A DNA stretch of 64,000 nucleotides from Oscillospiraceae bacterium (GTDB lineage: Bacteria > Bacillota > Clostridia > Oscillospirales > CAG-272), in contig SVTS01000001.1 in NCBI GenBank assembly GCA_015063645.1, positions 23,578-87,577 of the forward strand, written 5' to 3'. Both the position numbers and the translations under genes were made by a program. Positions 14,347 to 39,159 of the stretch are shown here, piece by piece (positions within the stretch are counted from its first letter, which is position 1; the number at the start of each line of letters is the position of its first letter). The notes under the pieces were generated by a model. It saw nothing but the letters and a program-made list of their open reading frames with translations. It ran no database searches and was not told the origin of the DNA.

Positions 14347-14462
14347 AGGAATCCTCCTGTTTTTTTCTTTATGGTATCACATTCTCGGCGAATGTGTAAA
14401 TGGAGGAATCAACCATCACGGTACTTTTCGACCATCTTTCCTCGTTTTTTCGCTCCGATCTA

Positions 14463-14491
14463 TTGACAGTATCCGGATTTGCCTGTATAAT
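14463..14491 (+). promoter_or_regulatory. Consensus sigma-70 promoter (TTGACA-17-TATAAT) for AraC gene
   Basis: TTGACA at 14463..14468, a 17-nt spacer, and TATAAT at 14486..14491. Confidence 0.55.
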
Positions 14492-14527
14492 GGCATCATG
14501 AAGGTATTGGGCAAGGAGGGGATACGG

Positions 14528-15343
14528 ATGCAGTTTTCTGATGTTGATTTTCAGATAGATGAGATTCTGCTGGTACACAAGAACTCCCTTGTTCCCCAAT
14601 TCAGATGGACCGGCTACCGCGGCGGCCGCAAGATGGACGGTCTGGTTTTCTCCGTCAGCGGAGAAGCACTTTTCGACTTTGGTGAAGAGAGATTCACTCT
14701 TCTGCCGGGCAACATGATTTTCCTTCCTTCAAACAGCAATTACACGGTGAAATGCGCAGGACAGGAATCTTTTCAGCATTACACGGTCAACTTCCGTCTC
14801 AGAGATATTCATGCCGAGGAAAATGCCTTTTCGGCGGAAATTCTCCGCGGAAACCTGCGTCATATAACGGATGCTTCCCTTTTCTCCCGCTACAGCGGTC
14901 ATTTTGAGCAGCTGCTTTCCGTATGGCAGGGGAAAAACGCTGGATACATGCTTATGGCAAAAGCGTACCTGTACGAGCTTCTGTATCTGTATCTGACAGA
15001 TGCGAACCGTTCTCTGCGTTCCCAGAACGGATATGCCCGGCTGCAGCCGGCACTGAAAATTCTGGATACAGCGTACACGGAAAACCAGAGTATCAACGAT
15101 CTGGCTGAGATCTGCGGAATGAGCGAGACGCATTTCAGACGGATGTTCCACCGGCTGTTCGGTCAGAGTCCGGCAGAATACCGGATTTCAAAACGCATTC
15201 TTCACGCAAAGGATCTGCTGACTGCCGGTCAGTACTCGGTGTCAGAGATCGCCCGTGCAACGGGATTTTCCGACCCCAGCTATTTCAGCCGCGTATTCCG
15301 CGCACACACGGGCATGTCGCCGGTTGAATTCATGCAGAGATGA
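14528..15343 (+). CDS. AraC family transcriptional regulator (cupin + HTH)
   Basis: Start chosen at ATG 14528, preceded by AAGGAGGGG. The ORF-track start at 14294 would overlap the divergent gene and the promoter. C-terminal AraC HTH (DLAEICGMSETHFRRMF..., GFSDPSYFSRVFRAHTGMSP). Confidence 0.85.
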   Translation: MQFSDVDFQIDEILLVHKNSLVPQFRWTGYRGGRKMDGLVFSVSGEALFDFGEERFTLLPGNMIFLPSNSNYTVKCAGQESFQHYTVNFRLRDIHAEENAFSAEILRGNLRHITDASLFSRYSGHFEQLLSVWQGKNAGYMLMAKAYLYELLYLYLTDANRSLRSQNGYARLQPALKILDTAYTENQSINDLAEICGMSETHFRRMFHRLFGQSPAEYRISKRILHAKDLLTAGQYSVSEIARATGFSDPSYFSRVFRAHTGMSPVEFMQR

Positions 15344-16746: not shown

Positions 16747-18828
16747 ATGGAAAATATTGTATTCGGTCCGCTGACATTTCAGATAAGTGATCAACGGACA
16801 ATCGCTCTCATGCGCTGTTTCTCTCATGATTATTCGGAACGCAGCGGCGATTCCGCTGAATTTTCGCTCTGTGAGTTTGATATTGCCGGCGGCATTACCT
16901 CCGGAACGAACCGTATGCGCGGATCTGCGGAGGTCAGGAAGCTGCTTTATGCAGGTCATGAGCAGACCGGCAATGTTCTGCGCATAACGCAGCGTTCCGA
17001 TATCGTCGAAGTGATTTCAGAATACACAATTTATGACGACACCAATGCGGTACGGGTTATCCAGACGATCCGCAATATTTCCGATGGGGAAATCTGTCTG
17101 GAAATGGCAAACACCTTTGGTCTTCGTTTCGGTCACGATATGATTGCCGATCACAAAAAGTATTATTTTCACAAGTTCACCAATGCCCGTTATACGGAAG
17201 CGATGCCCGATGTACGCTCCCTCTACGATTTCGGCATGTACTGGCAGAATTCTGTTTTCCGCGTGGAAAACGTAGGCAACATGTCCTCGCCCGAGCATCT
17301 TCCCCAGGGAATTCTGGAAAACAGAGAGGAAAGCGATTTCCTCATGTTCCAGATCGAATCCTATTACGACTGGTTTTATGAGATTTCCTTTGTCAGGAAC
17401 CGTTTCCACCTGCAGATCGGCGGTCCTACGGCACGCCGCCACAGCTGGAACAAAATTCTGCAGCCGGGTGAGGCATACACCACTGTACCGGCAGCGCTTG
17501 CCGGAGGAAAATCGCTGAACGGTGTTCTGGCTGAGATGACACGGTACCGCCGGCATATCAAGCCGGACGGATGTGCTGCTGAGAAGCATCTTCCTTCCAT
17601 TTACAACGAGTACATGCATTATTCCTGGGACGATCCCTTTGAGGAGCGCGTACGCGAGACAGCTCCGTATATTGCAAAGAGCGGCTGTGAATATTATGTT
17701 GTTGACTGCGGATGGCACGATGCACGGGAAGTACATTCTACGGACAGCATGTACAAGCTGTTCGGCACGTGGTATGAAGATCGCGGACGCTTCCCGGATG
17801 GAATCCGTGCCACAACGGAATATGTACGCTCTCTCGGTATGAAATTCGGTCTGTGGATCGCGCCGGAGGCTGTGGGACATAAAAACAAGAAAATGCTGGA
17901 ATATTACGGGGACGAATGTTTCTTCCAGCGGAACGGTAAAAAGATCGCCCACGGTACGGAATATCTGCTGGATTACCGGCATCCCAAGGTACGGGATTAC
18001 ATGACCCGTACGCTGGACCGCATGATCGACGAATACGGCTGTGATTACATCAAATTTGACGGATGTCCCAATCCCGGTCCCGGTACGGATCTGAACGCCA
18101 CTTCCCTCGGTGACGGTCTGGAGAAACAGTCTGCTGCATTCCTGGACTGGGTCAAGGAGATGATGGCGAAGCATCCGGACGTTATATTCGAAGACTGTGC
18201 CGGCGGCGGACAGCGCATGGACTACAGTGCGCTCTCCATCTTCCATCTGATCTCCACTTCCGATCAGACGGAATACAACCGTTATCCCTACATTACGGCA
18301 AATATTTTCGCATCCGTTCTTCCGGAGCAGGCGGCTGTATGGAGTTATCCCGTTTCCAGGACTGTTTACAATGCCGCAGAAAATGATCAGGCGGTAAACG
18401 GACTCGTTTCCCGCGAACTTGTTGTTATCAACATGGTCAATGCGGTTCTCGGGCGTATTCATCTTGCCTCCCGCATTCATCTGCTGGATGAAGAAAAGCA
18501 GGGACTGATCCGCGAGGGAATTGATTTCTACAATCGGATTACGCCGGAGAAGATCACTGCAGTTCCCTATCTGCCTAGGGGATATGCACGGTTCGGTGAT
18601 ACTTTTGCGGCTGCCGGGCTGAAAACGGACAAGAAGGTCTATCTTGCTGTCTGGAATCTCGGCGGAGAGCGCCATGTCAAGCTGGAGCTTCCCGAAATTG
18701 ATGCGGCAGATATCTGTGTGGCATATCCGCGCAATCTTGACACGCATTACTCCTTTGACCGCACATCTGTCACGGTCGATTTCAGTGAGGATGAACAGGC
18801 AAGAATTTTTGAAATTACCCTGGCATAA
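16747..18828 (+). CDS. GH36-like alpha-galactosidase family protein, cytoplasmic
   Basis: 693 aa. YVVDCGWH, FGLWIAPE and YIKFDGC mirror the GH36 blocks (xDDGWF, GLWxEPE, KWDMN). No signal peptide. Confidence 0.6.
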   Translation: MENIVFGPLTFQISDQRTIALMRCFSHDYSERSGDSAEFSLCEFDIAGGITSGTNRMRGSAEVRKLLYAGHEQTGNVLRITQRSDIVEVISEYTIYDDTNAVRVIQTIRNISDGEICLEMANTFGLRFGHDMIADHKKYYFHKFTNARYTEAMPDVRSLYDFGMYWQNSVFRVENVGNMSSPEHLPQGILENREESDFLMFQIESYYDWFYEISFVRNRFHLQIGGPTARRHSWNKILQPGEAYTTVPAALAGGKSLNGVLAEMTRYRRHIKPDGCAAEKHLPSIYNEYMHYSWDDPFEERVRETAPYIAKSGCEYYVVDCGWHDAREVHSTDSMYKLFGTWYEDRGRFPDGIRATTEYVRSLGMKFGLWIAPEAVGHKNKKMLEYYGDECFFQRNGKKIAHGTEYLLDYRHPKVRDYMTRTLDRMIDEYGCDYIKFDGCPNPGPGTDLNATSLGDGLEKQSAAFLDWVKEMMAKHPDVIFEDCAGGGQRMDYSALSIFHLISTSDQTEYNRYPYITANIFASVLPEQAAVWSYPVSRTVYNAAENDQAVNGLVSRELVVINMVNAVLGRIHLASRIHLLDEEKQGLIREGIDFYNRITPEKITAVPYLPRGYARFGDTFAAAGLKTDKKVYLAVWNLGGERHVKLELPEIDAADICVAYPRNLDTHYSFDRTSVTVDFSEDEQARIFEITLA

Positions 18829-18869: not shown

Positions 18870-19820
18870 TTATGTTTCATTTTTTCTTTCATCTGCCAGG
18901 TACCGTGTAATGCGCTGGCGGTAGGCGGACGGAGATTCTCCTGTGATTTTGGAAAATGCCCGGGAGAAATAGTGCGGATCGTCAAAGCCCACTGCCGCGC
19001 AGACATTTTTCAGAGACATATCCGGTGCATTCAGCATAATTTCCCGTGCGCGGTTGATACGGAATTCTATGATATACTGTGCGGGCGTTTTATCGAATTC
19101 GCTCCGGAAGAGGCGGATCAACTGGGATTTTGACAGATTGCTCACGCGGCACAACTCGTCAAGGGCGATCCGACGGGCATAATTCTGCCGCACATACCAG
19201 ACTGCTTTTTTCAGCGCGGCCGGGACACGGCGAAACTCCGTATAAGTTTCCCGATCGCGCAGCATACGGCAGCTTGCACGGGAGACGATCGAAAGGATCT
19301 GGCAGAAATACAGCATCAGCGGCAAAGCGTTATCCGCGCTGAGTCCGTTCAGCAAAGTCTCCATGCTGGCAGCCACATTACGCAGTTCCCCATTCGTATC
19401 TGTATAAAGCGGCATCAGGTACAGAGGATTTACGGAAAACAGAGAATCCGTTCTGTTCTTCATCAGCGCCGCTTCCGTCTCAGCACGCAGGCGGCTCACT
19501 TCATGTTCTGCTTCTTCAATTTCCAGTTCTCTGATTTTTTCCGATGGAGTGAAATGGATATACATCATTTTGCACATTCCGTCTCCTGCCGGAAAACGGC
19601 GGTAGGATTGCGCTGCCGGAATGAGCAAAGCACTTCCCGGGCTCAGTTCATACTGTTCAGAACCCATTTCCACGGAGCATTCTCCCTCCAGGACTACAAG
19701 GAGAATGGTATACGGATCCGCCACCTGCCAGACAGTACGGCGGACGACGATATACGCTTCCTCAATCTGCGGGAGTGTTTTTATAGAAAAACTGCTGATC
19801 ATTACACGCCTCCATGACAA
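18870..19820 (-). CDS. AraC family transcriptional regulator, divergent from GRE operon
   Basis: 316 aa. N-terminal cupin-like part and C-terminal AraC HTH (ELCRVSNLSKSQLIRLF..., GFDDPHYFSRAFSKITGESP). Confidence 0.85.
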   Translation of the reverse strand: MSWRRVMISSFSIKTLPQIEEAYIVVRRTVWQVADPYTILLVVLEGECSVEMGSEQYELSPGSALLIPAAQSYRRFPAGDGMCKMMYIHFTPSEKIRELEIEEAEHEVSRLRAETEAALMKNRTDSLFSVNPLYLMPLYTDTNGELRNVAASMETLLNGLSADNALPLMLYFCQILSIVSRASCRMLRDRETYTEFRRVPAALKKAVWYVRQNYARRIALDELCRVSNLSKSQLIRLFRSEFDKTPAQYIIEFRINRAREIMLNAPDMSLKNVCAAVGFDDPHYFSRAFSKITGESPSAYRQRITRYLADERKNET

Positions 19821-19850: not shown

Positions 19851-19885
19851 TTTACAATTCTAACATAAAACTGTATAATTGTAAA
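19851..19885 (+). promoter_or_regulatory. Promoter TTTACA-17-TATAAT embedded in a perfect 9-bp inverted repeat (TTTACAATT...AATTGTAAA)
   Basis: -35 at 19851..19856 and -10 at 19874..19879. IR arms at 19851..19859 and 19877..19885. Confidence 0.5.
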
Positions 19886-19980: not shown

Positions 19981-21102
19981 ATGAGCAAACTGAGAGTCGC
20001 CGTTATCGGCACAGGTATGATTGCCAACAGTGCACATTTCCCGATTCTGAACATTCTGCGCGAGGAGGGACTTGTTGAAGTTATCGGCGTTGCCGATATT
20101 CGTCCAGAAGCTGCGGCAGAGACCGCCAAGCGCCATGCTGTTCCCAACTGGTATACGGATCCGCAGAAAATGCTGGATGAGCTGCACCCTGATTTTGTTG
20201 CGGTCTGTACGCCGAACATGTATCACAAAGAATGGACGATCAAGGCACTCCGTGCCGGCGCCCATGTTGCCTGCGAAAAGCCTCTGGCACTGACCGTTGC
20301 CGATGCTGCTGAAATGTGGCAGACCGCACGCGACTGCGGAAAGATGCTCTTCCCCTGCCAGTGCATGCGCTGGCGCAACTACATGCAGCAGTCCAAGATT
20401 CTGGTGGACAGCGGTGAGCTTGGTGACGTATATTTCTCTGACATCGCTTTTGTCCGCCGCATAGGCGTTCCTACGTGGGGCATGTTCCACATGAAAGAGC
20501 ACAACTACGGCGGTCCTTTCTGCGATCTGGGTGTTCATCTGATCGATTCTCTGCTCTGGATCGTCGGTGACAAAAAAGTGGAAGCTGTTTCAGGCAGCAC
20601 CTACACGAAGATAGCCAATCAGGGTGAGGACATTCTTCTCAGCATTGCGGAAAGCGGCGCCTACAGCGGCACTTTCACGCCCCGTCCGTACGATTACCGC
20701 GAATTCAACGTGGAGGATTTTTCCACCGGCTTCATGCGCCTTGAAGGCGGCATGAGTGTCAACTTCAAGTTCTCCTGGGCAATCAATCTGCCTACGACCA
20801 ATCTGGACATGGTGATCTGCGGTGACAAGGGTGGTCTGTCTGTAAACGGCGAAACGCTGTACAAGAATATCGGACGTTATCAGACAGAATGCCGGATGAA
20901 ATGGTTTGACAACGGTCAGTACAAAGGCGTTCCCTTTGAGCAGCACCGTTACATGTACCGTCATATTCTTGACGTTCTCGCGGGACGCGATGAATATCTG
21001 ATCCGCGAAGCACAGAATATGGAAGTTACCAAGGCAATTGAATGCTTCTACCGCTCTGCTGAGCTTGGACGCGAAGTCCGTGCCTCCGAGCTGAAAGGAT
21101 AA
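19981..21102 (+). CDS. Gfo/Idh/MocA family NAD(P)-dependent oxidoreductase
   Basis: 373 aa. Rossmann start KLRVAVIGTGMIANSAH and family EKP motif (ACEKPLALT). AAGGAG RBS. Confidence 0.85.
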   Translation: MSKLRVAVIGTGMIANSAHFPILNILREEGLVEVIGVADIRPEAAAETAKRHAVPNWYTDPQKMLDELHPDFVAVCTPNMYHKEWTIKALRAGAHVACEKPLALTVADAAEMWQTARDCGKMLFPCQCMRWRNYMQQSKILVDSGELGDVYFSDIAFVRRIGVPTWGMFHMKEHNYGGPFCDLGVHLIDSLLWIVGDKKVEAVSGSTYTKIANQGEDILLSIAESGAYSGTFTPRPYDYREFNVEDFSTGFMRLEGGMSVNFKFSWAINLPTTNLDMVICGDKGGLSVNGETLYKNIGRYQTECRMKWFDNGQYKGVPFEQHRYMYRHILDVLAGRDEYLIREAQNMEVTKAIECFYRSAELGREVRASELKG

Positions 21103-21110
21103 GGTGGATT

Positions 21111-22205
21111 ATGATTAAAGCTGTTATAATCGGATTCTCCCACATGCATGTGAATGAGATCGCGCAGTACATCAGCGAGCAGCCCGATTTTACTCTGTCG
21201 GCAATCGCTGAGGTCGCCGGAAGCGGTGAGGGGATTCCTCCGCTCCGCTACACGCCTGCATGGAATCTGGCAAATGTAAAAGAAAAATACTGCCGGAACG
21301 AATATGCGGATTACCGCGAGATGCTGGATCGCGAGAAGCCGGACATCGCATTCATTCTGACGGAAAACTGCCAGAAGCCCGATGTTGTGGAAGAATGTGC
21401 GAAGCGCGGTGTCAACGTCTGCATTGAAAAGCCGATGGCTGTTTCCTATGCGGAAGCGAAACGGATTGAAGCCGCTGTAAAGGCACACGGCATCACTGCC
21501 GTTGTGAACTGGCCGGTAATCTGGCGTCCGTATCTGCACAAGCTCTGTGCCGCTGTAGAAAGCGGTATCGTGGGCAAGCCGATCAAGATGCGGTACATAA
21601 ACGGTCACACCGGACCTCTTGGCAAGGGTGCCCGCCACCGCGGCGTTGCTGAAAGCGCGGAGGAAATGACGGATGAGATTCGGGGACGCACCTGGTGGCA
21701 CAATGCCTCCCACGGCGGCGGCGTATTCCTCGACATCAGCTGTTACGGCTGTCTGTTCACGCAGTGGCTCATGGGGGACGGTGCGGAAAGTGTACTGGCA
21801 TATGGCGCTGATCTGAACACTCCCTTCGGTGACACGGCAGACAATGCCGCTGCTATTGTCCGTTTTGCGGATAAGATGTCCGTTATCGAAGGAACCTGGA
21901 CTACGCCCCGCGCACTGATTCCCTCCGGTCCGATGGTCAACTGCACAGACGGTGTGGTCACCTGCACCGGCGGTGCAGAGGACACTCCCGACGTCAAAGC
22001 ATACGATATGTTCGGCAAGGAAGTTGCTCTGCCCGAATATCAGCCGCAGGACAGCATGCGCAACATGCCCTGGCATTGGGCTGCTCACGTACAGGAAGGC
22101 AAACCGTTTTGCCGTATGGTTACGCTGGAGGAGAATCTGCGCGTAATGGCGATTCTTGACGCTGTAATCCGTGCATCCGCCAGCGGAAAAGCAGAAAAAG
22201 TATGA
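21111..22205 (+). CDS. Gfo/Idh/MocA family oxidoreductase (divergent N-terminus)
   Basis: 364 aa. IKAVIIGFSHMH and CIEKPMAVS motifs. Starts 8 nt after the previous gene, with an AAGGTGG RBS. Confidence 0.8.
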   Translation: MIKAVIIGFSHMHVNEIAQYISEQPDFTLSAIAEVAGSGEGIPPLRYTPAWNLANVKEKYCRNEYADYREMLDREKPDIAFILTENCQKPDVVEECAKRGVNVCIEKPMAVSYAEAKRIEAAVKAHGITAVVNWPVIWRPYLHKLCAAVESGIVGKPIKMRYINGHTGPLGKGARHRGVAESAEEMTDEIRGRTWWHNASHGGGVFLDISCYGCLFTQWLMGDGAESVLAYGADLNTPFGDTADNAAAIVRFADKMSVIEGTWTTPRALIPSGPMVNCTDGVVTCTGGAEDTPDVKAYDMFGKEVALPEYQPQDSMRNMPWHWAAHVQEGKPFCRMVTLEENLRVMAILDAVIRASASGKAEKV

Positions 22206-22966
22206 CGGGAATTATTGCGGATATTCAGCGTGCATCCGTCCATGACGGTCCCGGACTGCGCACGACGGTGTTTTTCAAAGGCTGTCCTCTGCGCTGCAGT
22301 TGGTGCCACAATCCGGAATGCATCTCCCCGAAGCCTCAGACACTGTTTTATCCGGACAAATGCATTCACTGCGGCGGATGTGCACAGGGATGCTTTTCCG
22401 GGGCACGTGTTCTCTGCGGGAAGATCATGGACACAGATACGGTTCTCGGCGAGATTCTCGCGGACAAAGATTACTATGGGACGGAAGGCGGTGTTACGTT
22501 CTCCGGCGGCGAACCGCTTCTGCAGGCGGATTTCCTGGCAGAGCTGACTGACGCATGTATTGCCTCCGGAATCCGGTGTGCGATGGAAACGTCGCTCTGG
22601 TTCTTCCGGGAGGATATTTTCACCCGCATGCAGCTTATAATGGCGGATCTGAAAATCTGGGACGGCGAAACCCATCGCCGATACACGGGTGTGTCCAATG
22701 AGCGCATCAGGGAGAATTTCCGTCGTTTGAATGAGCTTGGTATTCCGATTATTGCCCGTACGCCGGTGATTCCGGAGATCAGCCAGGGAATTCCGGAGAT
22801 TTCAGAATTTCTCAGAGGACTTGAGAACGTGAAAAAGTATGAGCTTCTTCCCTATCATCCGCTGGGCAATGCAAAGCTGACGGCACTGGGAATGGGATCT
22901 CCCTCTTTCACCGTACCGGATAAGGAACTTATGAAGGAGTTAAATCAACATGTATTCATACGCTGA
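22202..22966 (+). CDS. Glycyl-radical enzyme activating protein (radical SAM)
   Basis: 254 aa. SVHDGPGLRTTVFFKGCPLRCSWCHNPE (CX3CX2C) and GGVTFSGGEPLLQ. One extra Cys cluster, CIHCGGCAQGC. Its start overlaps the upstream stop (ATGA). Confidence 0.9.
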   Translation: MTGIIADIQRASVHDGPGLRTTVFFKGCPLRCSWCHNPECISPKPQTLFYPDKCIHCGGCAQGCFSGARVLCGKIMDTDTVLGEILADKDYYGTEGGVTFSGGEPLLQADFLAELTDACIASGIRCAMETSLWFFREDIFTRMQLIMADLKIWDGETHRRYTGVSNERIRENFRRLNELGIPIIARTPVIPEISQGIPEISEFLRGLENVKKYELLPYHPLGNAKLTALGMGSPSFTVPDKELMKELNQHVFIR

Positions 22967-25166
22967 CAGACTGCGCGCCATGCGTGAGACGAAGATCCGT
23001 CACACGCTGGAAAAGCGCAAGCAGAACGGATGCACGGATCTGGACGATTTCGGCACGGTGCCGCTCTCGCCCGGTTACTGTGTCATTCCGTGGTACAACA
23101 GTGAAAACGGCAGTTTTTACGGGCTGGACGGCATGGCGGAGAATTTTGTCCGCGTTATCGGTGCACATGAGCCGTATATTGACAAGAATGAAATGCTCTG
23201 CGGACGCTGGCGTGACATGCTGGTCAACTATCGCGGCGATCTGCATTACATGCCTGACTGGCTGAAGAATAATCTGAAGAATCTGGAATTTATCCAGAAA
23301 GGTGCCACCAATCAGTGGAGCAAGCGCTGGGACGAACAGCGTTTCCCCTACGATCATCTGAAGCCGTGGCATGTGAAATACAATATCACCAGCGGTATTG
23401 ACAGTGATGCGCATTTCGCATGCGATTACCGGATCGGTTTTGCGCTCGGCTTCGGCGGTATGCTGGAGAAGATCCGGAAGTACCGTGCGGTAAATCCCGA
23501 CAAAGCTGCTTTTTATGATGCAGAAGAACGCTGCGTCAACGCAATTGTGGACTTTATCCAGCGGCACATTGACCGACTTCACACTATGATCGCTGAGGAA
23601 ACAGACCCCGCTGTTCGCGAAAATCTGAAAACAATGTGCGAGACCTGCGAAAATGTAAAACTCGGGGCTCCGGGCACTTTCCGGGAAGTCTGCCAGTGGA
23701 CTGCATTCTTCAACTGTGCTGCACGCATTTACACCCGTGACGGTGCGGGATTCCAGCTGGATACGCTTCTGCTTCCCTATTATGAGAAAGATGTCAAAGA
23801 CGGAATTCTGGATGATGAAACGGCGAAATTCCTCATTGCCAATCTTCTGCTGATCGATCCGCATTACTATCAGATCTCCGGTGTGGATGAAAATGACCGT
23901 GATGTCACAAACCACCTCTCCTATCTGATTCTCGACGCGGCGGATTCCATCAACATCTCCTGCAATCTGACTGTACGCGTCCATGACAACTGCGATCCGG
24001 CGTTTATCCGCAAAGCGGTCTATTATCTGTTCAAGAACAAGAACGGCTGGCCCCGTTTTGCCAATGATGAAGCCCTCTGCAGCGGATACATGCGCACGGG
24101 TGCCGACAAAAAGACAGCCCGGGAGCGCATTGCCGTAGGCTGCCATTGGATGTGCGTACCGGGCCGGGAATTCCCCATGAACGACACGGTGAAAATCAAC
24201 GTTGCCAAGGTTCTGGAAGAAGCTCTGAAGGATATGCGCGGTGAAAGCGATAAATCCACAGAAAAGCTGTTTGCGCTTTACGAGGCGCATCTGACAAAAG
24301 CTGTGGAAATCACTGCGGCGGGCATCAATCATCATCTGGATCACATCGCGGATGTTACTCCGGAGCTGATTATGAATCTGATGATGCACGGGACTCTGGA
24401 AAAGGGAGAAGACATTTCCCGCTGTGCGGAGCTTTATACGGTCGGTATTGACGGCGCCGGTCTTGCGGTTGTTGCCGATTCATTCGGCGCACTGCAGGCG
24501 CGCATTGAAAATGAACATCTGCTGTCCTGGGAGGATATGTACGCCGCGCTGGACGATAATTTCGCCAATGAGCGTACGCGCGCTATGATGCAGTCTGCCC
24601 CCCGTTACTGCGGCGGAAACACTGTTTCGGATGCTTGGGCGAAGCGTCTGACCGAAAGCTGGGTACGCATTGTCCGCGCACAGGCGATGCCGGAGGGACG
24701 CCAGATGGTTCCCGGCTGGTTCAGCTGGTCCAGAACGATCGAATACGGTTCCAAGGTTGGTGCTACGCCCAACGGACGCCGTGCCGGTGAGCCGATCTCC
24801 CACGGTGCGAATCCGAATCCGCATTTCCGGCAGGATGGTGCTGTCACAGCGCTCGCCGGCGGTATTGCGGCAGTTCAGTGCGGCTGGGGCAACACGGCTC
24901 CGCTGCAGCTTGAGTTTGATCCCCAAATCACAGTAGAAGAAGGCGGCGTTGAGCGCGTCACGGAGCTGCTTCTCTCTCATTTCCGGCAGGGCGGAACGTT
25001 GATCAACATCAACATTCTGGATGGTGAAAAGCTGCTTGCGGCGCACAGGGATCCCGATCTGTATCCGGATCTGGTAGTCCGCGTTACGGGATTCACGGCA
25101 TATTTCGCCAGCCTTTCCCCCGCATTCCGTCAACTGGTTGTCAACCGTTTTCTGGAAGGAATCTGA
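22950..25166 (+). CDS. Glycyl radical enzyme (PFL-like fold), function unknown, non-canonical Cys loop
   Basis: 738 aa. C-terminal fingerprint VVRVTGFTAYF (Gly714 codon at 25089..25091). Cys loop AVGCHWMCVPG (Cys398 codon at 24141..24143). AAGGAG RBS, and a 17-nt overlap with the activase gene. Confidence 0.9.
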   Translation: MYSYADRLRAMRETKIRHTLEKRKQNGCTDLDDFGTVPLSPGYCVIPWYNSENGSFYGLDGMAENFVRVIGAHEPYIDKNEMLCGRWRDMLVNYRGDLHYMPDWLKNNLKNLEFIQKGATNQWSKRWDEQRFPYDHLKPWHVKYNITSGIDSDAHFACDYRIGFALGFGGMLEKIRKYRAVNPDKAAFYDAEERCVNAIVDFIQRHIDRLHTMIAEETDPAVRENLKTMCETCENVKLGAPGTFREVCQWTAFFNCAARIYTRDGAGFQLDTLLLPYYEKDVKDGILDDETAKFLIANLLLIDPHYYQISGVDENDRDVTNHLSYLILDAADSINISCNLTVRVHDNCDPAFIRKAVYYLFKNKNGWPRFANDEALCSGYMRTGADKKTARERIAVGCHWMCVPGREFPMNDTVKINVAKVLEEALKDMRGESDKSTEKLFALYEAHLTKAVEITAAGINHHLDHIADVTPELIMNLMMHGTLEKGEDISRCAELYTVGIDGAGLAVVADSFGALQARIENEHLLSWEDMYAALDDNFANERTRAMMQSAPRYCGGNTVSDAWAKRLTESWVRIVRAQAMPEGRQMVPGWFSWSRTIEYGSKVGATPNGRRAGEPISHGANPNPHFRQDGAVTALAGGIAAVQCGWGNTAPLQLEFDPQITVEEGGVERVTELLLSHFRQGGTLININILDGEKLLAAHRDPDLYPDLVVRVTGFTAYFASLSPAFRQLVVNRFLEGI

Positions 25167-25177
25167 TGGATATACAA

Positions 25178-25207
25178 AAACGCGCTTGCAAAGCAAGTGC
25201 GTTTTTT
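25178..25207. terminator. Rho-independent terminator after GRE operon
   Basis: acgcgcttgc-aaa-gcaagtgcgt stem (one mismatch) followed by TTTTTT. Confidence 0.55.
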
Positions 25208-25217
25208 CATACTTTTA

Positions 25218-26036
25218 TTAAACATATCTGCCGTTTTCAAGGTCACGGATCACTTGGGCTATCGCATGTTCTTCATTACTTACGGTTACATAATCGGCTG
25301 CCTCACGGGCTTCAGGACATGCATTGGCGACGGCTATACCGAGTCCGGCTGATTTAAACATGGAAATGTCGTTATTGTAATCGCCTATGGCGACGGTTTT
25401 ACTCATATCCACATGCAGATACTGTGCAAGTTTTTCGATTACCGTTCCTTTACCGATTCCTTTCGGCAGAATCTCAAACAGCGTTCTCTCAGAGCGGATA
25501 AAGTCAAACTGATCTGCCAGCGGATGTGCGCCCAGCGTCCGGGCAATCTCTCCGATCGTCTCCCCGCTTTCGCTTCCGAAGACAATTTTAGCAATCGGCT
25601 CTTTTACCTCGCGGTATGGACAGACGAGATTCGGCAGACGTGTCACTTCTCTGAAATGCTGCATGGTCTTATTTTCCCGACAGAAATATGTTTTATAAAA
25701 CGTATTGACCTGAATACCCACGTCGGAAAAAGCATCATCTATGCACTGTATCAGCTCTGTAACCGCCTCCGGCATGGTGCTTGTCCATATATATTTCTGA
25801 TTAGCATAGTCGTACAGACCGCCTCCGTTCACACATCCGATAGGCGCGTTCGGGTGTATTCTGTCATGAATCTTCGAGACAAAAAACGGCATACGTCCTG
25901 TAACGAATGTGAAATAACCGCCTTCGCTTTTGAAGTAGTCGATTGCGTACAGATTCTCGTCGGAAATGGTTTTATCTTTTCGCAGAAGCGTTCCGTCCAG
26001 ATCTGTGCAAAACAAAAAACCGTCAAAAATCCCCAT
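25218..26036 (-). CDS. Cof-type HAD-IIB family phosphatase
   Basis: 272 aa. Motif I FCTDLDGTLL and motif IV GDYNNDISMF. Overlaps the upstream AraC gene by 14 nt. Confidence 0.8.
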   Translation of the reverse strand: MGIFDGFLFCTDLDGTLLRKDKTISDENLYAIDYFKSEGGYFTFVTGRMPFFVSKIHDRIHPNAPIGCVNGGGLYDYANQKYIWTSTMPEAVTELIQCIDDAFSDVGIQVNTFYKTYFCRENKTMQHFREVTRLPNLVCPYREVKEPIAKIVFGSESGETIGEIARTLGAHPLADQFDFIRSERTLFEILPKGIGKGTVIEKLAQYLHVDMSKTVAIGDYNNDISMFKSAGLGIAVANACPEAREAADYVTVSNEEHAIAQVIRDLENGRYV

Positions 26037-26856
26037 ATGTATCTGTTTCCTTTTTATTATCTGATTCTTTATCGGTCAGTGTTTTTTTGAATTCTCTGGG
26101 TGACACGCCGATGCATTTTCTGAACACGGATGAAAAATACAGCGGATCGGTAAAGCCAGAAAGGAACGCTACATTTTTCACAGAATCGATCCCGCGTTCA
26201 AACAGAGCCACCGCATATTTGATACGCAGAGTACGGATATAATCCGAATAGTTCATCCCCATTTTCTGTTTGAAGAGATGGGAAAGATATTTTGAATTAT
26301 ACGAAAGTTCCTGAGCAACGGACGTGATCGTCAGCATGGGATCGGAGAAATTCTCCTCGGAAATCTCCACGATCCGAGTAAGCAGATCATTCTGCAGCGG
26401 ATTTTTCACACTGAGACGGGAGAATGTATACAAAAGCATACTCTCGGCGGCAAGATCCACATTCTGTCCGGAGGCACTTGCCAGGCTCTCATTCCACATG
26501 GGAATGAGTCCTGCAAATCCGGTAAAGACGCGGTTTTGCGGCGTGATACCGAATCTCCTGAACAACTCCCCGCTTCTGACTCCGCTGAAATCAATATACA
26601 TATAGGCAGTTTCCTGCTGTGTCTGCGCACGGCAGCTCTCGCACTCAAATCCGAACACCAATGTGCCGGGAGAATACGGTACAGTTCTGCTCTCCAGCAG
26701 AAATTCCCCATCGCCCTGTGTCACCAGAATCATGCGGTGTTTCTTCAGTGTCCAGGTATTCCGGATTATTTCCTGATTCGATTCAAGTACGAAGCAGGAA
26801 ACCGTCAGCACATCTTCAGCGCGGGCATCTATGAATTTGCATATATTTCTGTCCAT
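26023..26856 (-). CDS. AraC family transcriptional regulator
   Basis: 277 aa. C-terminal HTH (VAQELSYNSKYLSHLFKQKMG..., GFTDPLYFSSVFRKCIGVSP). Confidence 0.8.
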   Translation of the reverse strand: MDRNICKFIDARAEDVLTVSCFVLESNQEIIRNTWTLKKHRMILVTQGDGEFLLESRTVPYSPGTLVFGFECESCRAQTQQETAYMYIDFSGVRSGELFRRFGITPQNRVFTGFAGLIPMWNESLASASGQNVDLAAESMLLYTFSRLSVKNPLQNDLLTRIVEISEENFSDPMLTITSVAQELSYNSKYLSHLFKQKMGMNYSDYIRTLRIKYAVALFERGIDSVKNVAFLSGFTDPLYFSSVFRKCIGVSPREFKKTLTDKESDNKKETDTYGDF

Positions 26857-29784: not shown

Positions 29785-29919
29785 AATGCTGACTGCCAGC
29801 CGTCCGCATCACTGTCACTATTGTAGCACAGTCATGCGTCGGTGTCTATAGACAATCAGGCAAAAATTTGCACAATCGGGTTAAATTCATCGGATTTTAT
29901 GTGCAGGAGGCGGAAGAAG

Positions 29920-30762
29920 ATGTATATCAGCAGCGATTTTCCGGCAACTTTTACCGTTGAGGGAATCTTTTCCGTTCTGCTCCACACGTTCGACAGGCTT
30001 CCACGTTCAGGTGGGGAAGCCCACGATTTTCCCGAAATAATCTACATACTGCGCGGCAGGCATACTCTGTATGTGGACGGAAAGGAATACGCTCTGTCCG
30101 CGGGACAGATGATGATATATGCGCCCGGGGCGTTCCACGAGGGAAAAGACATCACCGGGGCTCAGGCTTATATTCTCAGCTTCAAAGTCGGGGCCGGCTT
30201 TCTTGATCCGCTGTACAATCGTGTGATCACACTGAACGAGGCACACAGGCAGCTGTTCTGCCGCATCATGGAGGACGGTCAGCGCTGTTTCATGCGCACT
30301 TCTCCGGGGCTTATGATCAGAGAAGGAACGGATACCTCCGTTCTGCAGAGGATGAAGAAACAGCTGGAATTTTTTCTCGCAGATATTCTTGTTGAATATG
30401 CAAGGCAGATAAACCGGGAGATTCCCGCCGGATGGGATGCTGATTTTGAAAAAGCTGTCCGATATCTGCATGAACATATCTGTCAGCCGCTCTCGCTGGA
30501 GGAGATTGCGTCAGGATGTTCCATGAGTGTTTCCAAGCTGAAAATGCTGTTCCGTGAGATGAGCGGATGCGGACCTGTCCATTACAGCAACGGACTGAAA
30601 ATTGAGTATGCAAAACAGCTCATTGCGGAAGGTGATTTGAATTTTACGGAGATTGCCGAAGCGCTTGGATTTTCCTCGCTGCATTATTTTTCCCGACTGT
30701 TCAGAAAGACAGCCGGAATATCCCCTTCAGAATATGCACGCACATGCCAGAGCAGTAAATAA
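29920..30762 (+). CDS. AraC family transcriptional regulator (cupin + HTH)
   Basis: Start moved to ATG 29920, with AGGAGG 9 nt upstream. C-terminal HTH (EIASGCSMSVSKLKMLF..., GFSSLHYFSRLFRKTAGISP). Confidence 0.85.
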   Translation: MYISSDFPATFTVEGIFSVLLHTFDRLPRSGGEAHDFPEIIYILRGRHTLYVDGKEYALSAGQMMIYAPGAFHEGKDITGAQAYILSFKVGAGFLDPLYNRVITLNEAHRQLFCRIMEDGQRCFMRTSPGLMIREGTDTSVLQRMKKQLEFFLADILVEYARQINREIPAGWDADFEKAVRYLHEHICQPLSLEEIASGCSMSVSKLKMLFREMSGCGPVHYSNGLKIEYAKQLIAEGDLNFTEIAEALGFSSLHYFSRLFRKTAGISPSEYARTCQSSK

Positions 30763-33523: not shown

Positions 33524-34645
33524 TCAGTATCTTCCGTAATTCTGGATTGCTGCCATAACGGTACGCATACTTGTCAGAAGCGAGCCGTTATTGATGGAAC
33601 CTGCGGTGCTCAGATTCAGACCGCGGGCATCGTTTTCCCGCGCCATTTCACAGTCGCGCTTTACTTCTGCGATAATATCTGCTTCGTTATTGCGCATGAA
33701 GGTGAACGGTGCCAGTTGTCCGTCAATACGTGTATGCGGCATATATTTCCGGATATGGGAAACGGTTACGGTTGGACCGAAATTGCAGCCTGTCAGATGC
33801 AGGCGGGCAAGGATCGGCACAAGGTGACCCATCGCAGAATCGGAATGCTGGAAACGGTTATCATCCGGATTCGGAGAAACACGCTCAAAGACGGATTTCA
33901 GAATGGGATAGCCGAACGCTTCATACATTTCGGGAGTCATCAGGTTGCTGTCATCGTCATAAAAACTGAATCCGTGGGAGAAATTCTCTTCACTATGCCC
34001 GGATTCCTCGATGAAGATACTGATGTATTCATGCACAACGCGAAGGATCGTCTCGGAGAAACGACGGAAAAGATCAGGATTATCATAGTAAAGGAACAGA
34101 AGATTTTCGGTACCGTATACAGAGGATGCCAGTGTTACGGGACCGCGGATACTTTTGAATTGCCCGGGACGTTTTCCATACTTCTCATAGAGACGCTTCT
34201 TTTCAGACTCCCAGTTAGCAGGCAGAATGAAGGAGCGCAGATCCAAATGATCGATCTCATCCAGTTTCTTTGCGAGGGATTCTTCATCGGTAAGCGTTCC
34301 CTTCAGCCATGTTGTCTTTCCGTCAAACACATACTGACCGCCGAAAACTTCGCCGATCTGGCGGAACGCCGGGAAAAAGCTGTCTGCGGGAGCAGGAGGA
34401 TTTTCACGCAGGAGTTTGCGTCCCACTATCTTCAGCGCTTTTTCGTTGTAACGCTTATTCAGCTCCAGTCTGCGCTCGGGCGGTGTATAGCCCCATGGTT
34501 CGCCCTCTTCTCCAAGTTCGGCGAAGACGCATTCATCACTCATACGGATGCCCAGCGCGACCTGCGGGGCCTCTTTGGAAAAACAGTTTTCCCTATGTGC
34601 CAGTTCATCATCTTTCCAGAACTGTTCGATATCCAGATCCAGCAT
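33524..34645 (-). CDS. Cytoplasmic protein of unknown function (373 aa)
   Basis: Uninterrupted ORF apparently co-transcribed with the 900-aa gene. No reliable motif recognised. Confidence 0.6.
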   Translation of the reverse strand: MLDLDIEQFWKDDELAHRENCFSKEAPQVALGIRMSDECVFAELGEEGEPWGYTPPERRLELNKRYNEKALKIVGRKLLRENPPAPADSFFPAFRQIGEVFGGQYVFDGKTTWLKGTLTDEESLAKKLDEIDHLDLRSFILPANWESEKKRLYEKYGKRPGQFKSIRGPVTLASSVYGTENLLFLYYDNPDLFRRFSETILRVVHEYISIFIEESGHSEENFSHGFSFYDDDSNLMTPEMYEAFGYPILKSVFERVSPNPDDNRFQHSDSAMGHLVPILARLHLTGCNFGPTVTVSHIRKYMPHTRIDGQLAPFTFMRNNEADIIAEVKRDCEMARENDARGLNLSTAGSINNGSLLTSMRTVMAAIQNYGRY

Positions 34646-39024: not shown

Positions 39025-39057
39025 AGGCGCTCCTTTTGATTCTGCAGTATTTTTATA

Positions 39058-39111: not shown

Positions 39112-39159
39112 CTGAAAATAATGTATTTTGTCATTATTTTTACCATTAATTGCACACAT

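What the first reader, a model, noticed from the sequence alone, without database searches (positions are those of the whole stretch)
19981..25166. Four-gene operon: two Gfo/Idh/MocA dehydrogenases + activase + short glycyl radical enzyme, in a glycoside-catabolic neighbourhood
Seen: the four + strand ORFs are linked by an 8-nt gap, a 4-nt ATGA overlap and a 17-nt overlap. They share one promoter and one terminator, and an AraC gene is divergent. The last ORF carries the Gly-radical fingerprint VVRVTGFTAYF and a Cys loop. The third has the radical-SAM CX3CX2C. Established: characterised GRE loci pair the enzyme with pta/ack/adhE (PFL), with microcompartment shells and aldehyde dehydrogenases (choline, propanediol), or with sulfonate or hydroxyproline genes. 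Gfo/Idh/MocA enzymes oxidise sugars, cyclitols and glycosides at secondary alcohols. None of the usual GRE partners is present here. Inference: this is a radical enzyme acting on a sugar-, cyclitol- or keto-glycoside-derived substrate that the two dehydrogenases make or consume. I do not recognise this combination as described, and I cannot name the substrate.
Basis: partly seen in the sequence, partly recalled or inferred. Interest (0 to 1): 0.85.

Follow-up and report, generated by a model that had tools for sequence, protein, structure and literature searches.

The report
New sugar-linked glycyl radical enzyme operon
A four-gene operon conserved in uncultured gut Clostridia pairs two sugar-ring oxidoreductases with a glycyl radical enzyme from a large uncharacterised branch that lacks the usual catalytic glutamate, which points to an undescribed radical step in anaerobic sugar or glycoside breakdown.

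Summary
Two Gfo/Idh/MocA genes, an activase and a 738-aa glycyl radical enzyme (GRE) form one tightly coupled unit with a promoter-like site, a strong terminator and a divergent AraC gene.

The block is conserved. Of 69 related loci with enough upstream DNA, 59 have the activase directly upstream and 63 have Gfo genes within six genes. All are uncultured gut Clostridia.

The GRE is 18-22% identical to every solved GRE and fails every curated family cut-off. Its Cys loop reads G-C-x-W, where all characterised eliminases and isomerases have C-x-E. This C-x-W motif marks a large clade (677-775 aa, more than 1,300 database proteins) that sits in sugar contexts from gut to sediments.

GfoA is closest by far to DgpA, the gut C3-oxidase of C- and O-glucosides. 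Orthologues of both GfoA and GfoB also flank the sister-clade GRE in environmental metagenomes, so the trio is old.

My best reading is that GfoA oxidises a pyranose ring that cannot be hydrolysed, the GRE cleaves it by a radical route that needs no glutamate base, and GfoB reduces the product. The substrate is unknown.

No paper links a GRE to these partners. A second uncharacterised GRE next to a Gfo gene lies 12 kb away.

The parts
18870..19820 (-). AraC-family regulator, divergent from the operon
   Evidence: It has HTH_18 (85 bits), HTH_AraC and an AraC_binding/cupin domain. Orthologues at 26-44% identity sit in the same divergent position in 29 related loci.
19851..19879 (+). Promoter-like site TTTACA-17-TATAAT in the 160-bp divergent intergenic region
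   Evidence: It matches 11 of 12 consensus positions and is the best site in the 7.3-kb scan. The sequence was read directly. This is a consensus match only.
19981..21102 (+). GfoA: DgpA-like Gfo/Idh/MocA oxidoreductase (373 aa), a putative pyranoside C3-oxidoreductase
   Evidence: Pfam gives GFO_IDH_MocA 97 bits plus both C-terminal domains. The best solved relatives are DgpA 7xr9 (E 4e-51, residues 1-361 against 2-361) and DgpA1 9m3d (E 4e-49); the next hit is at 1e-22. The motifs GTGMIAN, CEKP and GGPfcDlGvH are conserved in 66 homologues. A GfoA-type gene lies within six genes upstream of the GRE in 56 of 69 loci.
21111..22205 (+). GfoB: divergent Gfo/Idh/MocA protein (364 aa) with a degenerate dinucleotide-binding loop
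   Evidence: Pfam gives GFO_IDH_MocA 61 bits. There is no close solved relative; the best E-value is 1e-8. The N-terminal IIGF-x-HMH-x-NE replaces GxGxxG, EKP is kept, and both features hold in 65 orthologues. The same motif occurs in 37-43% identical orthologues next to the sister-clade GRE. GfoB lies within six genes upstream of the GRE in 61 of 69 loci.
22202..22966 (+). GRE-activating radical SAM enzyme (254 aa), a short form
   Evidence: TIGR02494 scores 251 bits against a cut-off of 174. It has C28-x3-C32-x2-C35 and only one ferredoxin-like CX2CX2CX3C (C54, C57, C60, C64) plus C40 and C72; all of these are conserved in 49 orthologues. It lies directly upstream of the GRE in 59 of 69 loci.
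22950..25166 (+). Glycyl radical enzyme (738 aa) of the uncharacterised C-x-W clade
   Evidence: Pfam gives PFL-like 303 bits and Gly_radical 43 bits. Gly714 sits in RVTGF. Alignment to PflD and glycerol dehydratase places G397-C398-H399-W400 on G-C-V-E. Cys398, Trp400, His155, Asp412 and Gly714 are kept in 77 of 77 orthologues. The AlphaFold2 model has pLDDT 88 and pTM 0.89. It matches all eliminase and isomerase GREs with TM 0.76-0.83 at 18-22% identity. It is below every NCBIfam cut-off.
25176..25206 (+). Intrinsic-terminator-like hairpin after the GRE gene
   Evidence: It has a 14-bp stem with 6 G-C pairs, a 3-nt loop and a T-rich tail, and starts 10 nt after the stop codon. This is a consensus match only.

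Best explanation
This is a catabolic module for a pyranose-ring compound, or a close analogue, that ordinary hydrolysis cannot open. Candidates are a 1,5-anhydro-alditol or a C-glycoside-type compound. Three things are shown. The four genes form one conserved transcription unit under an AraC-type regulator. The third gene is a bona fide GRE activase. The fourth is a GRE with the glycine, the cysteine and the fold intact but with Trp in place of the C-x-E glutamate. The mechanism below is inferred. GfoA, a DgpA-like enzyme, oxidises a ring hydroxyl, most likely C3, to a ketone. The activase installs the radical on Gly714, which generates a thiyl radical on Cys398. That radical abstracts a hydrogen from the carbinol carbon next to the new ketone. 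The resulting radical is flanked by OH and C=O, so it loses its proton without a dedicated base, which would explain why the glutamate could be lost. It then expels the beta substituent, most likely the ring oxygen. His155, the counterpart of the acid His164 of glycerol dehydratase, would protonate the leaving group, and Trp400 would stack on the ring. Hydrogen return from Cys398 gives an open-chain deoxy-diketo sugar. GfoB, and the extra Gfo pair or the hydroxypyruvate-isomerase-like TIM barrel present in other genomes, then reduce or isomerise it so that the sequence is redox-neutral overall. My estimates: sugar-type substrate with functional coupling to GfoA and GfoB, about 0.75; a keto-sugar as the actual GRE substrate, about 0.4; ring C-O cleavage as the reaction, about 0.3.
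For: Operon anatomy and junctions. Activase passes TIGR02494. GRE fold and catalytic Gly and Cys. Conservation of the block in 80 genomes of uncultured gut Clostridia. GfoA is closest to DgpA over its full length, well above all other Gfo structures. DgpA oxidises C3 of C- and O-glucosides with bound NAD(H) (PMC9939296 and PMC11239390). GfoA and GfoB orthologues (44-52% and 37-43% identical) lie beside the sister-clade GRE in sediment, freshwater and bioreactor metagenomes. The C-x-W motif replaces C-x-E in every clade member examined, down to about 25% identity, while the His155 and Asp412 counterparts of the glycerol dehydratase substrate-binding residues are kept. The clade sits in sugar contexts throughout, including xylose-isomerase-like TIM barrels, PfkB and FGGY kinases, CUT1-type sugar ABC transporters, DeoC, FSA and DHDPS aldolases, GH31, GH130 and rhamnosidase-like proteins. 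All characterised GRE eliminases and isomerases keep C-x-E with the Glu bonded to the substrate hydroxyl (PMC13450708), so a different activation logic is needed here.
Against: No biochemical datum exists for any member. The order of the steps, oxidation first and radical second, is only an inference from the missing glutamate; another conserved acidic residue (Glu407, Glu472, Glu484 or Asp488) could reach the active site and act as base. GfoA is about 40% identical to DgpA by my estimate from the printed alignment, a level at which substrate and even regiochemistry can differ. GfoB's degenerate nucleotide loop leaves its role open. Six of 69 loci have no Gfo gene nearby and instead have rhamnosidase-like, sialidase-like or heparinase-like neighbours. 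Many sister-clade loci have a URO-D-like protein, an ABC transporter and a kinase but no Gfo gene, so oxidation by a Gfo enzyme may not be obligatory for the clade's chemistry. No transporter is conserved next to the gut operon. The model's coordinates could not be inspected, so the positions of Trp400 and His155 relative to Cys398 are inferred from sequence alignment only.
Confidence: 0.45

Rival explanations
1. The GRE is a variant of 'anhydroglycolysis' for unphosphorylated substrate. It would act like PflD or YbiW, directly on unoxidised 1,5-anhydroglucitol or 1,5-anhydromannitol, opening the ring ether to give 1-deoxyfructose. The Gfo enzymes would act upstream as 1,5-anhydro-fructose reductases or epimerising dehydrogenases, not as makers of a keto substrate.
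For: PflD is the best solved sequence relative, and PflD and glycerol dehydratase are the top structural matches. 1,5-Anhydro-fructose reductase is a Gfo/Idh/MocA enzyme and is among GfoA's hits (2glx, E 4e-17). Clade relatives sit next to FSA-type aldolase, DeoC and sugar kinases, the enzyme types that finish the E. coli pathway (PMC13450708). The counterparts of the glycerol dehydratase acid His164 and of Asp447 are conserved.
Against: The PflD and YbiW mechanism relies on the C-x-E glutamate to deprotonate the C2 hydroxyl, and here that position is an invariant Trp. The PflD model NF007437 scores 207 bits against a cut-off of 1109. GfoA is far closer to DgpA (177 bits) than to the reductase (66 bits). 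The core operon has no kinase or aldolase.
Confidence: 0.2
2. The GRE is a radical dehydratase for a cyclitol or polyol, such as an inositol, a methyl-inositol or a deoxy-inosose. The Gfo proteins would be inositol or inosose dehydrogenases, and the TIM barrel an inosose isomerase or dehydratase analogue.
For: Several Gfo proteins of the locus give their best or near-best NCBIfam hit to inositol 2-dehydrogenase (IolG), below cut-off. Gfo dehydrogenases, AP_endonuc_2 TIM barrels and PfkB kinase are the enzyme types of inositol catabolism. The hosts are herbivore and high-fibre human guts, which I expect to be rich in plant cyclitols (the diet link is my own inference).
Against: All characterised GRE dehydratases keep C-x-E. 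The IolG model scores only 85 bits against a cut-off of 355, and DgpA is a much better match for GfoA. The TIM barrel resembles hydroxypyruvate or 2-oxo-tetronate isomerase more than IolE or IolI. No IolD, IolB, IolJ or IolA analogue is conserved nearby.
Confidence: 0.12
3. The GRE is a radical C-C lyase that cleaves 3-oxo-C-glycosides made by GfoA. It would functionally replace the metal-dependent DgpBC deglycosidase for aglycones that cannot leave heterolytically.
For: GfoA is DgpA-like. DgpB and DgpC counterparts do not appear among the conserved neighbour clusters. The hosts include Lachnospiraceae and Oscillospiraceae of plant-fed guts, the niche of known C-glycoside degraders (PMC11170127). 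DgpA homologues at about 40% identity are common and are often not next to dgpBC. Rhamnosidase-like and GH36-like genes recur nearby.
Against: The same GRE, GfoA and GfoB trio occurs in sediment and bioreactor metagenomes, and the clade extends to Anaerolineae, Poribacteria and Bathyarchaeota. There I would expect flavonoid C-glycosides to be a less obvious substrate. No aglycone-processing gene, such as a flavone reductase, is conserved nearby. No precedent exists for such GRE chemistry.
Confidence: 0.1
4. It is what the databases call it: a formate C-acetyltransferase, that is a pyruvate or 2-ketoacid formate-lyase.
For: Every named homologue is labelled 'formate acetyltransferase' or 'pyruvate formate lyase family protein'. 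The Pfam PFL-like domain is present.
Against: The PFL model TIGR01255 scores 62 bits against a cut-off of 994. The adjacent Cys-Cys pair that defines PFL and TdcE (PMC13450708) is absent; the loop is G-C-H-W. No pta, ack or adhE gene is nearby. The names come from automatic domain-level annotation.
Confidence: 0.02

Closest known systems
PflD and YbiW (GRE isomerases of 1,5-anhydromannitol-6-phosphate and 1,5-anhydroglucitol-6-phosphate, 'anhydroglycolysis')
   Same: They share the GRE fold (TM about 0.8). PflD is the best solved sequence relative (184 bits). They also act on pyranoid rings that have no anomeric leaving group. The His at the start of the barrel (GH..DY) and the Asp after the Cys loop are shared. 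Some clade relatives sit beside FSA-type aldolases and sugar kinases.
   Different: Identity is only 19-22%. C-x-E is replaced by C-x-W. The protein is 30-90 residues shorter. The partners are Gfo/Idh/MocA oxidoreductases rather than PTS, dehydrogenase and aldolase genes. Nothing suggests a phosphorylated substrate.
B12-independent glycerol dehydratase and 1,2-propanediol dehydratase (GRE C-O eliminases)
   Same: These are the top structural matches (1r8w, 5i2g). The counterparts of His164 and Asp447 of glycerol dehydratase are conserved as His155 and Asp412. An activase gene is adjacent.
   Different: The general-base Glu435 is absent. There is no microcompartment shell, aldehyde dehydrogenase or 1,3-propanediol dehydrogenase nearby. 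The activase has one rather than two ferredoxin-like Cys motifs.
DgpA-DgpBC and DfgE-DfgAB (two-step C-/O-glucoside cleavage in gut Lachnospiraceae)
   Same: GfoA aligns end to end with DgpA (E 4e-51). The niche is the same. The logic of oxidising C3 first to activate an otherwise inert glycoside would be shared.
   Different: The second step there is a Mn-dependent acid/base lyase made of a TIM barrel and a small subunit (PMC8563793). Here no DgpB or DgpC counterpart is conserved, and a radical enzyme with its activase takes that place in the operon.
Pyruvate formate-lyase (the database annotation)
   Same: Both belong to the GRE superfamily and have the PFL-like and Gly_radical domains.
   Different: There is no Cys-Cys pair, the equivalog model scores 62 bits against a cut-off of 994, and there are no acetyl-CoA or formate pathway neighbours.

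Membership tests
Glycyl radical enzyme superfamily (PFL-like branch) | C-terminal glycyl radical domain with the fingerprint RVxG[FWY]x6-8[FL]x4Qx2[IV]x2R | tested here: met
   Pfam Gly_radical scores 43.4 bits against a cut-off of 22.2. The sequence reads R711-V-T-G714-F...L722-SPAF-R727-QL-V730-VN-R733. One deviation: the fingerprint Gln is Arg727 in 77 of 77 orthologues. The fingerprint is taken from PMC13450708.
Glycyl radical enzyme superfamily (PFL-like branch) | Catalytic Cys on a Cys loop at the barrel centre, in a 10-stranded barrel fold | tested here: met
   Cys398 aligns with the catalytic Cys of PflD and glycerol dehydratase and is kept in 77 of 77 orthologues. The AlphaFold2 model has pLDDT 88 and matches solved GREs with TM 0.76-0.83. 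The Cys-Gly distance could not be measured.
Glycyl radical enzyme superfamily (PFL-like branch) | Dedicated radical SAM activase | tested here: met
   The adjacent gene passes TIGR02494 (251 bits against 174), has CX3CX2C, and lies directly upstream of the GRE in 59 of 69 loci. Radical formation itself is not testable with these tools.
GRE 1,2-eliminases and isomerases (glycerol and propanediol dehydratases, HypD, CutC, IslA, HpsG, PflD, YbiW, HplG) | C-x-E motif on the Cys loop, with the Glu hydrogen-bonded to the substrate hydroxyl | tested here: not met
   The loop is G-C398-H-W400; Trp is invariant in the family and throughout the clade. The definition comes from PMC13450708.
GRE 1,2-eliminases and isomerases | Score above a curated family model | tested here: not met
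   Scores against cut-offs: TIGR01774 266 against 678, PflD NF007437 207 against 1109, HypD 189 against 1100, HpsG 197 against 1000, CutC 136 against 1050.
Pyruvate formate-lyase / TdcE | Two adjacent cysteines on the Cys loop, and the equivalog model TIGR01255 | tested here: not met
   There is no Cys-Cys pair. The model scores 62 bits against a cut-off of 994.
X-succinate synthases and arylacetate decarboxylases | Close sequence relationship, and small Fe-S subunits where applicable | tested here: not met
   Benzylsuccinate synthase (4pkc) scores 50 bits, MasD (9o8u) 69, HPAD (2y8n) 59 and the hydroxyphenylacetate decarboxylase 7e7l 98. The indoleacetate decarboxylase model scores 110 bits against a cut-off of 1100. 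No small ORF is conserved in the block. ORFs under 90 aa were not examined systematically.
DgpA-type glycoside 3-oxidoreductases (for GfoA) | Gfo/Idh/MocA fold with full-length similarity to DgpA, and C3 oxidation of glucosides | tested here: inconclusive
   The fold and the best-hit relationship are met: 177 bits to 7xr9 and 171 bits to 9m3d, with the next family at 84 bits, and the EKP and GGPxxDxGxH motifs are kept. No curated model exists in the libraries searched. Identity is about 40%, estimated by eye from the printed alignment. Activity and regiochemistry are not testable here.
NAD(P)-dependent Gfo/Idh/MocA dehydrogenases (for GfoB) | Rossmann GxGxxG/A nucleotide loop plus the EKP motif | tested here: inconclusive
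   EKP is present, but the loop reads I-I-G-F-S-H-M-H, and this is conserved in 65 orthologues and in sister-clade orthologues. The Pfam N-terminal domain scores 61 bits. Cofactor binding is unknown.

The most novel reading that the evidence does not exclude
The C-x-W proteins are a new mechanistic class of glycyl radical enzyme that works on keto-sugars rather than alcohols. A DgpA-like enzyme and its GfoB partner would lend and take back a hydride (a 'borrowed hydrogen' cycle) around a base-free radical step. That step would break a ring C-O bond, or a C-glycosidic C-C bond, that no hydrolase or acid/base lyase can break. This would give anaerobes from gut to sediment a general route into non-hydrolysable pyranosides.
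Probability: 0.3. Interest if true: 0.85.

Novelty: new variant of a known kind. Interest (0 to 1): 0.72.

Why it matters
Most recent additions to GRE function came from gut anaerobes and turned out to matter for the host: trimethylamine, hydrogen sulfide, p-cresol, skatole, hydroxyproline and anhydro-sugars. This locus gives a concrete entry point into a whole clade that has never been assayed. That clade holds more than 1,300 proteins in one profile search, from gut Clostridia to Chloroflexi, Poribacteria and Bathyarchaeota. It breaks the one rule that holds for all characterised eliminases and isomerases, the C-x-E motif. The conserved partners narrow the substrate search to pyranoside-like compounds and supply the enzyme (GfoA) needed to make the likely substrate in vitro. 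If the proposal holds, it would add a radical branch to the recently recognised '3-keto-glycoside' routes of glycan and C-glycoside breakdown. It would also correct thousands of 'formate acetyltransferase' annotations.

Tried and rejected
1. E. coli origin or homology: megablast of the operon against 5,426 complete E. coli genomes found nothing.

2. Known-function assignment: NCBIfam, PDB sequence search and Foldseek all place the GRE equidistant from characterised families, so no transfer of function is justified.

3. Literature: 'glycyl radical' was searched together with Gfo Idh MocA, DgpA, C-glycoside, inositol, anhydroglucitol and sugar phosphate isomerase, and all papers on glycyl radical enzymes from 2024 to 2026 were listed. 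None described this pairing.

4. His399 as a replacement base: rejected. Position 399 is Asn in 76 of 77 orthologues and varies (H, N, Q, F) across the clade. My first conservation printout was misleading on this point and was corrected.

5. Cys402 as a second radical-relay cysteine as in PFL: unlikely. It is Ala in 4 of 77 orthologues and absent in most of the wider clade.

6. A conserved transporter, kinase or aldolase in the gut operon: not found in a Pfam census of 120 neighbouring proteins.

7. The HAD phosphatase downstream (25218-26036): not conserved with the block.

8. A metagenome scan with the very diverse alignment A3 failed because it had no conserved stretch, and was repeated with A5.

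9. DfgC and DfgD of Eubacterium cellulosolvens, a two-protein O-glucosidase, could be a precedent for the paired Gfo proteins.

Full report
OBSERVATION

Direct reading of the junctions shows an 8-nt gap (GGTGGATT), an ATGA start/stop overlap and a 17-nt overlap. Shine-Dalgarno-like AAGGAG and AGGAG precede the first and last genes. A TTTACA-17-TATAAT site lies at 19851-19879, in the 160-bp region shared with the divergent AraC gene (18870-19820). A 14-bp hairpin with a T tail starts 10 nt after the GRE stop. Both are consensus matches, not proof. Pfam and NCBIfam confirm two Gfo/Idh/MocA proteins, a GRE activase (TIGR02494, 251 bits against a cut-off of 174) and a protein with PFL-like and Gly_radical domains. 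None of the usual GRE partners (pta/ack/adhE, microcompartment shells, aldehyde dehydrogenase, sulfonate or hydroxyproline genes) turned up among the window ORFs scanned.

WHAT THE GRE IS

The 738-aa protein has Gly714 in RVTGFTAYF. Alignment to PflD and glycerol dehydratase identifies Cys398 as the catalytic cysteine. An AlphaFold2 model built on 62 sequences is confident (pLDDT 88, pTM 0.89; only residues 97-131 are poorly predicted). It superposes on every solved eliminase or isomerase GRE with TM 0.76-0.83, but at only 18-22% identity, and no characterised enzyme stands out. Every curated NCBIfam model is far below its cut-off: TIGR01774 scores 266 against 678, PflD 207 against 1109, and PFL 62 against 994. 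The database label 'formate acetyltransferase' is therefore only a domain-level name.

The key feature is the Cys loop. Where PflD has G-C-V-E, this protein has G397-C398-H399-W400. A June 2026 review states that all six C-O eliminases retain C-x-E, describes the same Glu in CutC and in the C-S lyases, and says that all three isomerases retain the motif, with the Glu hydrogen-bonded to the substrate hydroxyl. It also states that only PFL and TdcE have a Cys-Cys pair (PMC13450708). Here Trp400 is kept in 77 of 77 orthologues, together with Cys398, His155, Asp412 and Gly714. His155 and Asp412 are the counterparts of His164 and Asp447 of glycerol dehydratase. Position 399 is Asn in 76 of 77 orthologues, so the window protein's His is the exception, and it cannot be a conserved base. 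The fingerprint Gln after the Gly loop is Arg727 in 77 of 77.

A CLADE, NOT A ONE-OFF

An exhaustive search of 50%-identity representatives gave nearest relatives at 53, 48, 45, 43, 41, 40 and about 38% identity (all 700-775 aa), and then generic GREs at 27-31%. All the nearer ones, down to about 25% identity, carry G-C-[H/N/Q/F]-W. The generic ones carry G-C-V-E. A profile of distant C-x-W members recovered more than 1,300 proteins from Anaerolineae and other Chloroflexi, Poribacteria, Bathyarchaeota and Firmicutes. Those that carry a name are called formate acetyltransferase, formate C-acetyltransferase or pyruvate formate-lyase; one is labelled hypothetical protein. At least one is a natural activase-GRE fusion (P0324, 1,054 aa).

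CONSERVATION OF THE BLOCK

Eighty genome loci hold an orthologue at 68-82% identity. They are almost all uncultured Clostridia from ruminant, rabbit and human guts (Lachnospiraceae, Oscillospiraceae, Christensenellaceae, Acutalibacteraceae), with one assembly labelled Selenomonadales. Among the 69 loci with at least 3.4 kb upstream, the activase is directly upstream in 59, GfoB lies within six genes in 61, a GfoA-type gene in 56, and some Gfo gene in 63. The 17-nt activase/GRE overlap itself recurs in 29 loci.

Two extended layouts exist.
- Layout I: AraC, divergent, then Gfo, Gfo, GfoA, GfoB, activase, GRE. This amounts to two pairs, each with an A-type and a B-type protein.
- Layout II: AraC, divergent, then a 424-aa Gfo-like protein, a 253-aa xylose-isomerase-like TIM barrel (closest to hydroxypyruvate or 2-oxo-tetronate isomerase, below cut-off), a GfoA paralogue, GfoB, activase, GRE.

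A PF12831 flavoprotein is adjacent in 18 loci. A census of 120 further neighbours adds more Gfo proteins, TIM barrels, PfkB kinases, D-lyxose isomerase, aldose epimerase and rhamnosidase-like proteins, but no conserved transporter. The few loci without Gfo genes have rhamnosidase-like and melibiase-like genes, sialidase-like and DHDPS genes, or heparinase-like genes instead.

THE PARTNERS

GfoA aligns end to end with DgpA of the gut strain PUE (7xr9, E 4e-51) and with DgpA1 (9m3d, E 4e-49). The next structure is at 1e-22. DgpA oxidises C3 of the glucosyl ring of C- and O-glucosides with bound NAD(H) and passes the hydride to a 3-oxo-sugar (PMC9939296, PMC11239390). GfoB has no close solved relative. 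It keeps the EKP motif, but its nucleotide loop reads I-I-G-F-x-H-M-H, and this is conserved in 65 orthologues.

The strongest evidence comes from the sister clade, about 44% identical to the window GRE. In 80 metagenome loci from sediments, freshwater and bioreactors, seven or eight have a Gfo pair beside the GRE. The members of that pair are orthologues of GfoA (44-52% identical) and GfoB (37-43% identical, with the same G-F-[G/A]-H-M-H loop). The GfoA, GfoB and GRE trio is therefore older than the gut family, which argues for a functional unit and not a chance neighbourhood. Other sister-clade loci show activase, GRE, a URO-D-like protein, a CUT1 sugar ABC transporter and a PfkB/HAD kinase (13-17 loci), or enolase-superfamily pairs. 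Single look-ups gave Gfo, TIM barrel and MR_MLE proteins (Anaerolineae); GH130, ROK and MFS proteins (Firmicutes); GH31, sugar ABC, DHDPS and RraA-like proteins; and FGGY kinase, DeoC and FSA-type aldolase (Bathyarchaeota). Carbohydrate metabolism is the common denominator.

MECHANISM (INFERRED)

C-x-E enzymes abstract a hydrogen from a carbinol carbon. The Glu then deprotonates the hydroxyl so that the ketyl radical can expel the neighbouring leaving group. This clade has lost that Glu but kept the acid His and the Asp, and it travels with an enzyme that installs a ring ketone. My proposal has four steps.
1. GfoA makes the 3-keto derivative of a pyranoid ring that has no hydrolysable anomeric substituent, such as an anhydro-alditol or a C-glycoside-like compound.
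2. The Cys398 thiyl radical abstracts the hydrogen from the adjacent carbinol carbon. The resulting radical, flanked by OH and C=O, is acidic enough to need no dedicated base.
3. That radical expels the beta substituent, most plausibly the ring oxygen, with His155 as the acid and Trp400 stacking on the ring.
4. After hydrogen return, GfoB and the other Gfo or TIM proteins reduce or isomerise the open-chain product, so the sequence is redox-neutral.

I put about 0.75 on 'sugar-type substrate, coupled to GfoA and GfoB', about 0.4 on 'the GRE substrate is the keto compound', and about 0.3 on ring C-O cleavage. The rivals are as follows.
- A PflD-like isomerase acting on unoxidised anhydro-alditols (0.2). 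The missing Glu argues against it.
- A cyclitol or polyol dehydratase (0.12).
- A radical C-C lyase for 3-oxo-C-glycosides that replaces DgpBC (0.1). The environmental distribution makes it less general.
- A true PFL (0.02).

Main weaknesses: there is no biochemistry, I could not inspect the model's coordinates, another conserved acidic residue might reach the pocket, and many clade members have no Gfo neighbour.

COMPARISON AND NOVELTY

The protein is a member of the GRE superfamily: all defining features were tested and met, with one fingerprint deviation. It is not a member of the PFL, eliminase/isomerase, decarboxylase or X-succinate synthase families as these are currently defined. It probably works most like PflD and YbiW or the dehydratases, but with a different activation logic and with partners borrowed from the DgpA-type keto-glycoside routes. 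No paper in 8 million full texts links a GRE with Gfo/Idh/MocA or DgpA. I rate it a new variant of a known kind, with interest 0.72. It is a large, conserved, never-assayed GRE clade with an altered catalytic motif and a defined set of partner enzymes that makes the question directly testable.

IN PASSING

The window holds a second GRE at 36838-39024 (minus strand, 728 aa). Its Cys loop is G-C-N-Q, it is about 25% identical to the first GRE, and it is below all family cut-offs. Another Gfo/Idh/MocA gene (39212-40222) and an AraC gene (40342-41196) lie directly upstream, and no activase is adjacent. Of its 120 listed homologues, 103 keep C-N-Q, and three look-ups showed sugar-type but variable contexts. 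Two GREs that both lack the Glu and both sit next to a Gfo gene, in one 64-kb window, fit the idea that pre-oxidised sugars are a recurring class of GRE substrate.

Noticed in passing
window 36838-41196 (minus strand): There is a second, unrelated GRE (36838-39024, 728 aa). Its Gly loop is LIVRVGGYSDYF and its Cys loop is G-C-N-Q, so Gln replaces the usual Glu. It is about 25% identical to the first GRE. Its best solved relatives are CutC and HypD at about 294 bits, and it is below all NCBIfam cut-offs. Directly upstream lie a Gfo/Idh/MocA gene (39212-40222) and an AraC gene (40342-41196). No activase is adjacent. C-N-Q is kept in 103 of its 120 listed homologues. Three other genomes show variable sugar-type contexts: an FSA-type aldolase with a BNR protein; an AraC gene, a beta-propeller protein and GH5/GH2 glycosidases; and an aldo-keto reductase, a KDPG aldolase, a TIM barrel and an activase.
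   Followed up: partly
window 33524-34645 (minus strand); L083, L084, L086; about 17 of loci L088-L167: A URO-D-like protein (PF01208, weakly MtaA/CmuA-like) recurs next to C-x-W GREs. It lies directly after the GRE in 13-17 sister-clade loci, ahead of a sugar ABC transporter and a PfkB/HAD kinase. It is also present in the P0344 and P0378 contexts, and one lies in this window near the second GRE. Its role is unknown.
   Followed up: partly
window 22202-22966: The activase is short (254 aa). After the radical SAM CX3CX2C it has only one ferredoxin-like CX2CX2CX3C motif plus two extra Cys (C40, C72), all conserved in 49 orthologues. From my own knowledge, activases of eliminase-type GREs usually have two such motifs. 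The NCBIfam alignment skips about 30 model positions at this point.
   Followed up: partly
window 21111-21140 (GfoB N-terminus); L091, L108, L117, L123, L149: GfoB's dinucleotide-binding loop is I-I-G-F-x-H-M-H-x-N in place of GxGxxG. This is conserved from gut Clostridia to sediment metagenomes. The B-type Gfo of layout I has a similar G-M-Q-H-I-H. It could mean an altered cofactor or a non-redox role.
   Followed up: partly
window 24144-24146 (codon 399 of the GRE): The window protein has His at the position after the catalytic Cys. 76 of 77 genome orthologues and 108 of its 120 listed homologues have Asn there. His is the usual residue in the 44%-identical sister clade.
   Followed up: yes
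P0324 and P0126 (database proteins, not in the window): P0324 (1,054 aa) is a natural fusion of the activase and a C-x-W GRE in one polypeptide; it carries Radical_SAM, Fer4, PFL-like and Gly_radical domains. P0126 (1,052 aa) is of similar length, with its GRE part starting at about residue 400, but its N-terminal part was not examined.
   Followed up: no
window 30803-33505 (minus strand); L060 and L064 at about 10356: A 900-aa ORF with no Pfam hit has 36-37% identical homologues placed directly downstream of the GRE in two Christensenellaceae loci. An 831-aa ORF at 10396-12891 also has no Pfam hit.
   Followed up: no
window 14294-15343, 18870-19820, 26023-26856, 29842-30762, 40342-41196: There are five AraC-family regulators within 27 kb. 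They are interleaved with glycosidase-like genes (rhamnosidase-like 8116-10236, GH36-like 16747-18828), an arabinose-isomerase-like gene (12913-14346), GDSL esterases and a glucuronyl-esterase-like gene (43692-44750). The region looks like a patchwork of small plant-glycan utilisation units.
   Followed up: partly
L001-L080 (18 loci): A 389-aa FAD-dependent oxidoreductase of family PF12831 sits next to the Gfo-activase-GRE block in 18 loci. Two PF12831 genes also accompany the distant C-x-W GRE P0344.
   Followed up: no
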